64,000 bases of DNA from Eledone cirrhosa (taxonomy: Eukaryota): the NCBI GenBank assembly GCA_964016885.1, contig OZ024749.1, positions 46,004,001 through 46,068,000 on the forward strand, read 5' to 3'. The notes under the pieces were generated by a model that was given only the letters and a program-made list of their open reading frames with translations, did no database searches and had not been told where the DNA came from. Both the position numbers and the translations under genes were made by a program. Below, in pieces: positions 1 through 62,281 of the stretch (position 1 is the stretch's first letter; each line of letters begins with the position of its first letter).

Positions 1-44
<44 letters not shown>

Positions 45-78
45 AGTATGTATATATATGTATATATATATACATATT

Positions 79-2740: not shown

Positions 2741-3863
2741 ATGAAACTGATACACTGGAAACGTACAGAGATGATGACATTAAGTTTAATACAGATTGAA
2801 GGAACTTAAAAAAGGATAGAGTGTAACTGAGCCATAATATGTTTGGAAGTAATTGATAGAGAGGGAAAAGTGTCTGAGAAAAACACACATAGAGAAGGCA
2901 GCGATGTACAGGTGTAGTAAAAGAGAAGGAGCTAAAGTTAGAGATGAGACTTGGTATAGTATTGTAATCCTAAATAAAATTGTAGTGAGGGACAGAATGA
3001 ATCAAGACCGGGTGGTTGAATCAATTACTTCCTGTTCAATAGGGAGCATGAGTGGACAATTGATAGACCGTATGAGCAAATATTTGACCAAAATATATTA
3101 TGAGTTAAAAGAAATAGGGAACATGAAAGACAGACATGCAAAAAAGGAACGACGATACAAGATCTCTCCCAAAACAAAAAATAAAATGAAATGAACATCA
3201 TAATACCCACAAACATAATATAACCCCCATTGATTTCCATCATCAATGAAACACTGCATAAGCCGGTCACGTGATATAATGCTTGTTTATCACCCGGCAG
3301 CCTCGTTCTGATTTCCTCAATTTCAAATCTTCTCCCATGTTGATTTTTCCTTCATTTTCCCTTTATTTTTAGGGATTTGTCGTTATGACTTGGTTTTATT
3401 TGTGTCATTTTTATACATCTTGCTAGACATCTTCAGTTAGGTTGGCATACATATTTAAACCATATCCGTTCAAACTTAATGGCTTCGTCTCATACCATAT
3501 TCTCCTTCGAATTGTTGTTACTATGCGGCAATGTACGCAACTCGATTTATATTACTATTATGTATATATACATAAATAAATGAATATATTGGAAGCCCCG
3601 TGTATAACCAGTGAGGTGTCCCACTGGATGATTCAGGATTGGATAGGAAAACAATATATTTTGCCAGGAAGAAGAATTTTATGACAATCTAAGGTTCCTG
3701 AAATCTGAGAGACTAAGCATTTTCAGTGATTTTAAATGTAGTGAATCTACATGAATCTATTTAATGTGAATCATTAGTGGTGGGCATACTGTAAAATTGG
3801 CTTCAAATTGTAATTGAATGCCTATCTGTATAAAGAAAACCACGGTACTAATCCCTTATACAC

Positions 3864-3920
<57 letters not shown>

Positions 3921-3933
3921 TATATATATATAT

Positions 3934-3986
<53 letters not shown>

Positions 3987-4103
3987 GATAAATCTACCAA
4001 GAGTTTACGGTAGTGTCCAATCCGTATGGAGAACTCAATGTATTCCGGATATCATGGAAAGAAGAGATGTAATGAAAAACCACTTTCGGTGAAAGATAAA
4101 CGG

Positions 4104-4293
4104 TATAAGACGGCGTATATATGTGTTTGGTATGTATATTTAATCTTGATAATTTGTATAATTTTGTATAATTTTGTACATAGATCTGTTGAATATGCAT
4201 ACCAATTCTAACACATATATATCCTAGAAACGATCGTTAAATAATGAACTTTTTTTGTTTAATATAAGGAATTGTTTATTCATTATTTGTTTA

Positions 4294-9830: not shown

Positions 9831-9915
9831 ATTTAAGTAACAGACGTACTAAGAGTCAGAAATGAAATTTCGTTTCATTTTTTTCCATATATATATATAT
9901 ATATATATATACAGG

Positions 9916-10119
<204 letters not shown>

Positions 10120-31947: not shown

Positions 31948-31975
31948 ATATTGTTATACTTGGGGAGGGTCATAT
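31948..31975. mobile_element. Terminal fragment of the 61580-62013 foldback element
   Basis: ATAT-TGTTATACTTGGGGAGGGTCATAT matches the ATAT-TGTTATATTTGGGGAGGGTCATAT junction at 61576. Confidence 0.75.
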
Positions 31976-41018: not shown

Positions 41019-41145
<127 letters not shown>

Positions 41146-41173
41146 CATATTTCGTTTCTGACTTTATTTAGAT

Positions 41174-41214
41174 TCACTGAAGAGGTCACATAATGTGTGA
41201 CGAAAGAACTTTGA
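41174..41214 (+). ncRNA. Minimal type I hammerhead ribozyme motif
   Basis: TCA-CTGAAGA-G-GTCACA(TAATG)TGTGAC-GAAA-GAAC-TT-TGA: perfect 6-bp stem II, one extra nt after the core, 3-bp stem I, CUU triplet. Confidence 0.55.
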
Positions 41215-41363
41215 CAATATGGGAACAACCGTCCGGTTGTGGAACCAACCAACCAACCGGAATTTTATAAATTCTTAAATTTATAAGTTTAATTTATAAT
41301 AAATTGGAGTGAAAGCAAATGGAGGGTGTGTTTCTTATTGGCAACATGACCCTCCCAAAGTAT

Positions 41364-41411
<48 letters not shown>

Positions 41412-49504: not shown

Positions 49505-49685
49505 AGATCAAAAGATGGTTAAAGGAGTTCAATATATTTTATTATGCGCATTTCAAAAACAAACATCATCAAACAATAATATTTGTGTTTTCATCAGATA
49601 AAACAGGAGAACATGATATGAAGGCTAAAAAAAACACTTGTTGATAGTGCAGTTTTAAATCAACCATCTTTTGATCTTATATTAT
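49497..49685. repeat. 24-bp perfect inverted repeat (49497-49520 / 49662-49685) flanking a hammerhead
   Basis: ATAATATAAGATCAAAAGATGGTT and AACCATCTTTTGATCTTATATTAT. Confidence 0.9.
49535..49605 (-). ncRNA. Type I hammerhead ribozyme (best-conserved copy)
   Basis: Minus strand: TGTTTTAT-CTGATGA-AAACACAAATATTATT(GTTT)GATGATGTTTGTTTTT-GAAA-TGCGCA-TA-ATAAAATA. 8-bp stem I, 16-position stem II with one mismatch, palindromic stem III TGCGCA, AUA triplet. Confidence 0.85.
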
Positions 49686-61263: not shown

Positions 61264-61328
61264 ATATTACTCACTACCATGACTGAATCTTAACCATCTA
61301 CTATGTCAGGGTATGTCATGCATCATCT

Positions 61329-61395
61329 TATGTTATCTGATGAGGACGTACTGTTGAACTTAACTCAGTACCTCTGAAATATGTATAATAAAATA
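61329..61395 (+). ncRNA. Type I hammerhead ribozyme
   Basis: TATGTTAT-CTGATGA-GGACGTACTG(loop)CAGTACCTCT-GAAA-TATGTA-TA-ATAAAATA. Stem I 7/8 paired, stem II 9/10 paired, AUA triplet (cleavage predicted after 61387). Confidence 0.8.
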
Positions 61396-61445
61396 TACTT
61401 GATCACAAGAATATCTATTTTGTTAATAAATACTTTGAATTAATA

Positions 61446-61527
<82 letters not shown>

Positions 61528-61579
61528 TATATTAGTTTTGCGAGGTTTTTTATATGAAATCGTGTGTCGAAACAGATAT

Positions 61580-62013
61580 TGTTATATTTGGGGAGGGTCA
61601 TATTTGCGTAATATTGCCAGAATTAATAACAGAACACACTCACTGTTTGGTTGGTTTTCGCTTCTCGCTGTCTTTTATATATATATATCTGCGATCTAAC
61701 TTACTCGGTCCTCAATGTTGCCATTGACTGACCGGCGGTCAAAAATAATACAGATACAATATAGACAAACACATATATATATAGTTTACATAAATCTTTC
61801 GTTGCACATCTGCAACATCGTCAGTGGTGTTATATTCATTGTTCCTCCTGTTGTGTTGTATGTCTACGCCATTTTTTTTGAGGACCGAGTAAGTTAGATC
61901 GCAGATATATATATATAAAAGACAGCGAGAAGCGAAAACCAACCAAACAGTGAGTGTGTTCTGTTATTAATTCTGGCAATATTACGCAAATATGACCCTC
62001 CCCAAATATAACA
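61580..62013. mobile_element. 434-bp foldback/MITE-like element: 136-bp perfect terminal inverted repeats, TGT...ACA ends, ATAT flanks
   Basis: 61580-61715 is the exact reverse complement of 61878-62013, including the internal (AT)6. ATAT lies at 61576-79 and 62014-17. The spacer is 162 bp. Partial arms occur at 9916 and 31952. Confidence 0.85.
61779..61835 (-). ncRNA. Minimal type I hammerhead ribozyme motif inside the foldback spacer
   Basis: Minus strand: ATATA-ACAC-CA-CTGACGA-T-GTTGCA(GATG)TGCAAC-GAAA-GATT-TA-TG-TAAAC-TATAT. Perfect 6-bp stem II, extra U after the core, stem I interrupted by an internal loop. Confidence 0.6.
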
Positions 62014-62192
62014 ATATATAGATATATATATATATAAATATAATATATATATAGGGAAAAGACAGGACACGACCGCTGGCTTCGGGTCGTTACGACAGCT
62101 AGATCCGAACGCATATATTTATATATATATATATATGTGTGTGTGTGTTGCATTGCTCAGTAAATATGTTATATATGAGATACTAATCCTAT

Positions 62193-62281
62193 CACGTTTG
62201 ATGAGCTGCCGATTCCACAGTCGGGACCGATCACTACCTTTCGTAAATTGAGCTACTCGTTCGCGAAACGCGCGACACGTG
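62193..62281 (+). ncRNA. Decayed type I hammerhead ribozyme
   Basis: CACGT-TTGATGA-GC...GC-GAAA-CGCGCG-AC-ACGTG: 5-bp stem I and palindromic stem III. C3>T and U16.1>A substitutions. Confidence 0.55.

What the first reader, a model, noticed from the sequence alone, without database searches (positions are those of the whole stretch)
61576..62017. Perfect 136-bp foldback element with Ginger-like ends carrying a hammerhead in its loop
Seen: identical 136-bp arms, TGTTA...TAACA termini, ATAT on both sides, and a 162-bp spacer containing a minimal hammerhead (61779-61835, minus) and a TGACCG-G-CGGTCA mini-hairpin. Arm fragments recur at 9916 and 31952, the latter with the same ATAT-TGTTA junction. 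Established: Ginger DNA transposons have TGT...ACA ends and 4-bp TSDs, and hammerheads are normally features of retroelements, not DNA transposons. Inference: either a young non-autonomous DNA transposon that captured a ribozyme, or an inverted duplication created at a PLE-type insertion. ATAT is palindromic and common here, so it is weak evidence for a TSD. A transcript would form a 136-bp perfect dsRNA with a self-cleaving loop.
Basis: partly seen in the sequence, partly recalled or inferred. Interest (0 to 1): 0.75.

Follow-up and report, generated by a model that had tools for sequence, protein, structure and literature searches.

The report
Mirror-image stub of a Penelope retrotransposon
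The perfect fold-back is real, but it is the cut-short, head-to-head end of a young, high-copy Penelope-like jumping gene with its usual ribozyme motif, likely made when both cut DNA ends started copying the element's RNA; it is a known kind of insertion, not a DNA transposon that captured a ribozyme.

Summary
In detail: exact 136-bp arms, a 162-bp spacer and a minimal hammerhead motif. The Ginger/MITE reading fails. Arm plus spacer is the 3' repeat (pLTR) of a 4,128-bp element with a 1,217-codon open frame (RT, CX4CxxC linker, GIY-YIG). The insertion extends 49 bp further left (61531-61579, the PLE 'tail'), so the left ATAT is element sequence. The real target duplication is 12 bp, ATATATAGATAT; 8 of 10 testable family copies show a 12-14 bp duplication. 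This exact inner joint occurs once in the genome; the hammerhead core occurs 5,204 times. On chromosome C1, 39 of 41 head-to-head clusters pair one tailed with one tail-less end. Inverted truncated copies, a one-sided tail and pLTR hammerheads are published PLE features (PMC8557442, PMC4209133, PMC11167929). The family data favour priming from both target ends on the same RNA (inferred). The scan already reported this architecture and reading on other DNA of this genome. Ordinary element; modest mechanistic value.

The parts
61519..61530 (+). Left copy of the 12-bp target-site duplication ATATATAGATAT at the end of a (TA)n tract (12-14 bp; the next AT is ambiguous)
61531..61579 (-). PLE 'tail': unit positions 1-49, coding for the ORF N-terminus just behind MTLPKYNN; present on this end only
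   Evidence: 100% to L033 unit 1-49; tblastn, P0001 aa 1-29
61580..61880 (-). Long arm: pLTR, unit 3828-4128, 100% identical to full-length copy L033; 5'-truncated at a family hot spot (13 of 90 arm ends lie in unit 3800-3849)
61580..61601 (-). First codons of the element ORF (ATG at 61601, MTLPKYN...)
61712..61741 (-). Two small pLTR hairpins (UGACC-GCC-GGUCA and UCAAUG-GCAA-CAUUGA); the short arm starts inside the second
   Evidence: function untested
61789..61826 (-). Minimal type-I hammerhead motif: CUGACGA core, extra U, 6-bp helix II, GAAA, self-complementary AGAUUU, predicted cut after A 61791, helix I of only 2 bp
   Evidence: cleavage not tested
61864..61875 (-). AAAATGGCGTAG motif just inside the truncation hot spot, also kept in a sister family; resembles a YY1 site (recalled, not tested)
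61878..61880 (+). Head-to-head joint with a 3-nt overlap (TTG) shared by both arms; unique in the genome
61878..62013 (+). Short arm: inverted 5'-truncated pLTR copy, unit 3993-4128, tail-less end TAACA
62014..62025 (+). Right copy of the 12-bp target-site duplication; its first 4 nt (ATAT) equal the first 4 nt of the tail

Best explanation
This is a 483-bp, 5'-truncated, head-to-head insertion of a young Penelope-like retrotransposon (RT plus C-terminal GIY-YIG endonuclease) in a TA repeat, flanked by a 12-bp duplication, and likely made when both 3' ends of the cut target primed reverse transcription of the element's RNA. Inferred steps: the endonuclease nicks the two strands about 12 nt apart. 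One 3' end primes inside the ORF start (tail position 47-49 or 62) and copies 350 nt, to what is likely the RNA's 5' end region. The other primes at the fixed TAACA|AUAU site and copies 136 nt. The two cDNAs join through TTG/CAA microhomology and are filled in. The hammerhead is the element's own pLTR motif and sits in the loop only because the second arm stopped short of it. It would need a second copy (dimer) or the protein to cut.
For: Shown: identity of 61531-61880 and 61878-62013 to the unit of full-length tandem copy L033. The ORF has RVT_1 (E 5.9e-5, below the curated cut-off), YVDD, CX4CxxC, VY..C..C..YIG and R/H/E/N conserved across 25 aligned homologues. Exact matches genome-wide: 1,547 tailed ends, 2,211 tail-less ends (the latter pattern also hits sister families) and 5,204 hammerhead cores. 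On C1:1-158.6 Mb, 39 of 41 head-to-head clusters have one tailed and one tail-less outer end, 0 are tail-less at both ends and 2 are tailed at both. Tail ends are bimodal: 16 of 58 at 46-49 and 35 of 58 at 58-63. A 12-14 bp TSD is seen in 8 of 10 testable loci against 20 of 490 mismatched pairs. For two separately primed cDNAs: the tail-less arm is longer in 19 of 45 joints, the tailed arm in 16, and they are near-equal in 10. Poly-A stutter is confined to one arm in 4 of 31 loci (23/12, 14/11, 27/8, 29/8). Microhomology of 2 nt or more occurs at 14 of 26 clean joints against about 14% by chance. For one template or source: arms of one locus differ at 1.9 sites/kb against 4.9 between loci and share 19 private substitutions (53 loci). 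Co-terminal joints are in excess: 10 of 45 within 25 nt against 2.1 permuted, and 5 of 40 against 1.4 (P=0.009) outside the hot spot. Literature: an Anolis PLE protein cleaves and extends both strands and starts at two sites that bound the tail (PMC11167929, main text read).
Against: The priming mechanism is read from genomic end-products only. Shared variants between arms could also come from gene conversion or from fold-back copying. Unequal arms could be later deletions of longer palindromes. 19 of 45 joints carry inserted bases rather than microhomology. Pfam did not call the GIY-YIG domain; it rests on motifs. In PMC11167929 the start sites needed no homology to the target, so the 2-4 nt AT matches here may be incidental. 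Helix I of the hammerhead is only 2 bp and the AGAUUU duplex alone scored +1.2 kcal/mol, so the ribozyme may be inactive. No independent read spans this joint.
Confidence: 0.85

Rival explanations
1. Same PLE insertion, but the second arm was made by fold-back: one cDNA (or an antisense RNA, as proposed in PMC3846280) snaps back on itself and is copied, and later deletions make the arms unequal.
For: Excess of co-terminal joints, some centred on short palindromes (L062, L029); arms share private substitutions; in this window the tailed arm is the longer one, which fold-back allows; self-priming is the published proposal (PMC3846280, passages read).
Against: In 19 of 45 joints the tail-less arm is longer, and a cDNA begun at the tail-less site cannot template the tail. 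The second arm stops at the same base rather than copying the tail. Poly-A stutter is not mirrored in 4 of 31 loci.
Confidence: 0.1
2. A non-autonomous Ginger-type DNA transposon (MITE) with 136-bp TIRs and a 4-bp TSD that captured a hammerhead.
For: TGTTA fits the TGTNR terminus, 136 bp lies in the TIR range, and Ginger2 prefers RTATAY targets (PMC2836005, passages read).
Against: One copy of this joint in 3 Gb; arm lengths differ at nearly every locus; the left ATAT is element-coded and the TSD is 12 bp; the parent encodes RT and GIY-YIG, with no other frame over 195 codons in the unit; no head-to-head cluster has two tail-less TGTTA ends (0 of 41).
Confidence: 0.02
3. Assembly or library fold-back artefact.
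For: The arms are 100% identical; no public contig spans the joint (inconclusive).
Against: The structure is asymmetric (tail on one side), the flanks differ beyond a 12-bp TSD with a rare G interruption, and dozens of loci follow the same rules with different joints.
Confidence: 0.03

Closest known systems
Canonical EN+ Penelope-like elements, Neptune/Nematis type (PMC8557442, passages read)
   Same: RT plus C-terminal GIY-YIG with CCHH and a CX2-5CxxC linker; partial tandems; inverted 5'-truncated copy; tail at one end only; hammerhead in the pLTR; microsatellite target.
   Different: The tail is 47-49 or 62 nt (three start sites in all) rather than 30-40 bp. Neptune against Nematis was not resolved. 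Whether this family is already in Repbase or Dfam could not be checked.
Poseidon_Ac (PAc) of Anolis, in vitro (PMC11167929, main text read)
   Same: Two copying start sites bound the tail; both target strands are cut and extended; AT-rich target; hammerhead near the ORF start.
   Different: Penelope/Poseidon clade, which lacks the linker Zn-finger. Its start sites lie 111-118 nt into the ORF, against 22 and about 70-84 nt here; its hammerhead overlaps the start codon, here it lies about 190 nt upstream. The paper does not explain the inverted arms.
Minimal type-I hammerheads of metazoan PLEs (PMC4209133, results and discussion read)
   Same: Extra nucleotide before helix II, G10.1-C11.1 pair, long helix II, palindromic 15.1-16.1 segment, short helix I (2 bp as in D. 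virilis); pairs on opposite strands were already noted there.
   Different: Nothing substantial; activity not tested.
Pen2a_Av and kin in Adineta vaga (PMC3846280, passages read)
   Same: Inverted pLTR, one-sided tail, pLTR holding the first codons of the ORF, 8-10 bp TSD, asparagine-rich stretch in the ORF.
   Different: TSD here is 12-14 bp; the N-rich stretch is N-terminal to the RT; that paper explains the inversion by self-priming on an antisense template.
Ginger1/Ginger2 DNA transposons (PMC2836005, passages read)
   Same: TGTNR ends, inverted repeats of similar length, AT-rich target.
   Different: 4-bp TSD, integrase-like transposase and fixed TIR length; none is met here.
L1 twin priming (recalled, no call)
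   Same: A second target end primes on the same RNA and the cDNAs join by microhomology.
   Different: In L1 the inverted part is a different, upstream segment; here both arms copy the same 3' segment from two fixed start sites.

Membership tests
EN+ Penelope-like element | Single ORF with RT | tested here: met
   1,217-codon frame in L033; RVT_1 E 5.9e-5, below the cut-off; YVDD and other motifs. The window holds only the first codons.
EN+ Penelope-like element | C-terminal GIY-YIG endonuclease with CCHH motif and R, H, E, N residues | tested here: met
   Motifs conserved in the alignment of 25 sequences; Pfam gave no hit.
EN+ Penelope-like element | Tandem or partial-tandem units forming pLTRs, inverted 5'-truncated copy, one-sided tail | tested here: met
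EN+ Penelope-like element | Minimal hammerhead in the pLTR | tested here: met
   Motif at unit 3882-3919; two compensatory pair changes in helix II against one sister family (4 rows, two families, so weak).
EN+ Penelope-like element | RT falls in the PLE clade, sister to telomerase RT | not tested
   No named reference PLE proteins were at hand; the PDB search gave only weak RT hits.
Neptune/Nematis type | CX2-5CxxC linker before GIY-YIG | tested here: met
   HCTNRKCIIC at aa 1083; C77/C82/C85 invariant in A1.
Neptune versus Nematis | RT phylogeny | not testable with these tools
   No named references.
Hydra clade | CCHH absent, linker CxCX5C | tested here: not met
   CCHH and CX4CxxC present (criteria).
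Ginger DNA transposon | TGTNR termini | tested here: met
   TGTTA...TAACA, but these bases are ORF codons of the PLE.
Ginger DNA transposon | 4-bp TSD | tested here: not met
   12-bp TSD here; 12-14 bp in 8 of 10 testable loci.
Ginger DNA transposon | Integrase-like transposase in the autonomous parent | tested here: not met
   The parent encodes RT + GIY-YIG only.
MITE / non-autonomous TIR element | Dispersed copies of fixed length and interior | tested here: not met
   1 exact joint genome-wide; joints vary among 45 loci.
Active hammerhead ribozyme | Self-cleavage | not testable with these tools
   3 of 90 arm ends lie within about 10 nt of the predicted cut: no clear signal.

The most novel reading that the evidence does not exclude
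This family records an obligatory asymmetric twin-priming mechanism. A dimeric PLE enzyme on one RNA primes one target end at the pLTR end and the other at tail position 47-49 or 62; both copies often run to the same RNA 5' end and are joined head to head. This would explain the inverted pLTR and the one-sided tail of PLEs in one step and replace the published self-priming model.
Probability: 0.45. Interest if true: 0.5.

Novelty: new member of a known kind. Interest (0 to 1): 0.2.

Why it matters
The locus itself is one of well over a thousand similar ends and needs no special explanation. It is a caution for annotation: short head-to-head PLE stubs mimic MITEs with TGT...ACA ends and an apparent 4-bp TSD. 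The family is young (copies 97-100% identical, intact ORFs), so its insertions are a good natural data set for an open point named in PMC8557442: how PLEs form tandem/inverted repeats and tails. The counts here (39:0:2 end asymmetry, 12-bp TSD, one-arm stutter, co-terminal joints) give predictions that the published in vitro PLE assay could test. Twin priming for PLEs was not found in print in searches, but earlier notes of this scan reached the same reading on other families.

Tried and rejected
Rfam scan of the window: no match. Pfam on the whole protein: none; on parts, RVT_1 only, below the cut-off. PDB profile search: only weak RT hits. Sequencing runs: no RNA holder listed. Contigs of four runs (at most 2 samples) cover the element as a high-copy repeat, but none spans the joint, so they say nothing for or against it. 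The first structure string was out of register and was redone. One search was an uninformative self-alignment. The first TSD script used a wrong boundary for the 49-nt tail class and was redone. 'Solo' tail-less ends: of 20 fetched, many belong to sister families that share only the last 20-27 nt, and some have a diverged tailed partner, so 2,211 is not a copy number of this family. Hammerhead cut site as a truncation hot spot: no clear signal. A search of earlier findings by sequence gave nothing. The YY1 label is recalled; one search was seen as a listing only. Host: the best named homologue is from Octopus vulgaris (69%), so an octopus is likely but not established. Supplements of the cited papers were not read and may list this family.

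Full report
Observation. The arms 61580-61715 and 61878-62013 are exact reverse complements over 136 bp with a 162-bp spacer. The hammerhead-like motif lies on the minus strand at 61826-61789 and the small hairpin at 61729-61741. Arm fragments occur at 9886-9998, 31952-31975 and 41343-41367.

What the sequence belongs to. A search of the own genome with the 434-bp unit scored 40 of 717 candidates. Apart from the window and one 90% copy, the best hits match query 1-301 at 100% and then run on. Their flanks show two kinds of end: TAACA followed by (TA)n, or TAACA followed by a shared sequence that is also present left of the window's 'arm'. Locus L033 holds a tandem unit of 4,128 bp with an open frame of 1,217 codons. 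[quoted passage not shown] These are conserved in an alignment with 24 of the 92 homologues found. By the criteria in PMC8557442 (passages) this is a C-terminal EN+ Penelope-like element of Neptune/Nematis type, not Poseidon, Hydra or Naiad. The best named homologue is from Octopus vulgaris (69%).

Anatomy of this copy. Against the L033 unit, 61531-61579 is unit 1-49 (minus), 61580-61880 is unit 3828-4128 (minus) and 61878-62013 is unit 3993-4128 (plus), all at 100%, with a 3-nt overlap TTG at the joint. The ORF's ATG is at 61601, so the 'Ginger-like' terminus is coding sequence and the left ATAT is the start of the tail. Outside the true ends lies a 12-bp duplication, ATATATAGATAT (61519-61530, 62014-62025), a word found 3 times on the window's + strand. 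The joint is unique: one match in 3.0 Gb. Exact matches number 1,547 for the tailed end, 2,211 for the tail-less end (shared with sister families) and 5,204 for the hammerhead core.

Family rules. The listed ends on C1:1-158.6 Mb (80 tailed, 100 tail-less) form 123 clusters. Of 41 head-to-head clusters, 39 have one tailed and one tail-less outer end, 2 have two tailed ends and none has two tail-less ends. I fetched 40 paired and 20 unpaired tailed loci and found 46 head-to-head joints. One with tails at both ends (L091) was left out and one breakpoint inside a poly-T run (L066) was set by hand, leaving 45. Tails end at 46-49 (16 of 58) or 58-63 (35 of 58); the other 7 are breaks of exact match at substitutions. 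Where the TA flank is interrupted, 8 of 10 loci show a 12-14 bp duplication, against 20 of 490 mismatched pairs (50 loci examined, 40 uninformative). The tail-less arm is longer in 19 joints, the tailed arm in 16, and the two end within 25 nt in 10 (permutation mean 2.1; 5 of 40 against 1.4, P=0.009, outside the hot spot). Of 26 joints without inserted bases, 14 have 2 nt or more of microhomology (chance about 14%); 19 have insertions. In 53 loci, which include 15 from the first, score-ranked search, the two arms differ at 1.9 sites/kb against 4.9 between loci and share 19 private substitutions. In 4 of 31 loci the A-tract is expanded in the tailed arm alone.

Mechanism (inferred). These rules fit two cDNAs, each primed by one 3' end of a staggered cut, from two different fixed sites on the same RNA or on sister RNAs of one source, then joined head to head. 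PMC11167929 (main text) shows that a PLE protein cuts and extends both strands and starts at two sites that bound the tail, but it does not address the inversion. PMC3846280 (passages) proposes self-priming on an antisense template. Fold-back explains the co-terminal joints and the shared variants, but not the longer tail-less arms, the fixed stop before the tail or the unmirrored stutter, unless later deletions are added. 13 of 90 arm ends, and the long arm here, fall just upstream of an AAAATGGCG motif. Joints of a sister family (L114, L117, L121) fall before the matching AAGATGGCG. This may be the RNA's 5' end (lead from earlier finding e1-9504305; YY1 likeness recalled) or a stall near the A-tract.

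Hammerhead. The motif matches the minimal PLE type of PMC4209133 (results and discussion): extra nucleotide before helix II, G-C closing pair, palindromic 15.1-16.1 segment. A sister family, with a remnant at window 41173-41367, keeps the register with two compensatory pair changes in helix II (only two families). Helix I is 2 bp here and about 4 bp in the sister family, so activity is doubtful. A read-through transcript would fold into the 136-bp duplex, but no expression data were available.

Comparison and verdict. Ginger membership fails on TSD length and transposase (PMC2836005, passages), and MITE behaviour fails on copy structure. An artefact is unlikely given the asymmetry and the TSD, though no independent read spans the joint. 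Inverted truncated copy, one-sided tail and pLTR hammerhead are textbook PLE features, and recently active Penelope families are reported in O. vulgaris (PMC13282606, passages). The bioRxiv paper 10.64898/2026.07.22.740005 (first part read) ties animal retrozymes to PLE pLTRs and does not change the reading. Searches found no paper proposing twin priming for PLEs; earlier notes of this scan propose it for other families of this genome. New member of a known kind; interest 0.2.

Noticed in passing
window 41140-41367 (+): Older sister-family PLE stub with the same layout: inverted tail remnant, homologous hammerhead (CUGAAGA at 41177) and the same ATGACCCTCCC...TAACA end; 932 first-look candidates in the genome.
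   Followed up: partly
window 9886-9998 (+) and 31952-31975 (-): Short 5'-truncated copies (about 110 and 24 nt) of the same or a sister family's tail-less end, set in (TA)n.
   Followed up: partly
window 61333-61392 (+): A second, unrelated hammerhead motif (CUGAUGA...GAAAUAUGUAUA) 140 bp left of the insertion, in a high-copy repeat at about 61273-61428.
   Followed up: no
window about 62190-62275 (+) and 49597 (-): Further hammerhead-like motifs: a degenerate one with UUGAUGA core right of the insertion, and one with an 8-bp helix I at 49597.
   Followed up: no
L002 (G000:C2:295350350-295350769): An older copy (90%) with almost the same two breakpoints (unit 3993 and 3833) but with the tail on the short arm: a recurrent joint in mirror arrangement.
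   Followed up: partly
P0001 aa about 255-420 (L033): Long asparagine-rich stretch in the N-terminal part of the ORF, kept in frame; recalls the N-rich inserts of Adineta Penelope ORFs (PMC3846280).
   Followed up: no
L017, L019, L020, L066, L072: Poly-T stutter (up to 29 nt) at the pLTR A-tract in the tailed arm only.
   Followed up: partly
L090, L082, G000:C1:181.30 Mb: Arrays of three or more full units in tandem, some joined to an inverted arm.
   Followed up: no
L052, L064, L065, L091: Tail ends at 63 where the target offers CAT, matching the RNA's AUG: a hint of 3-nt pairing at priming.
   Followed up: partly
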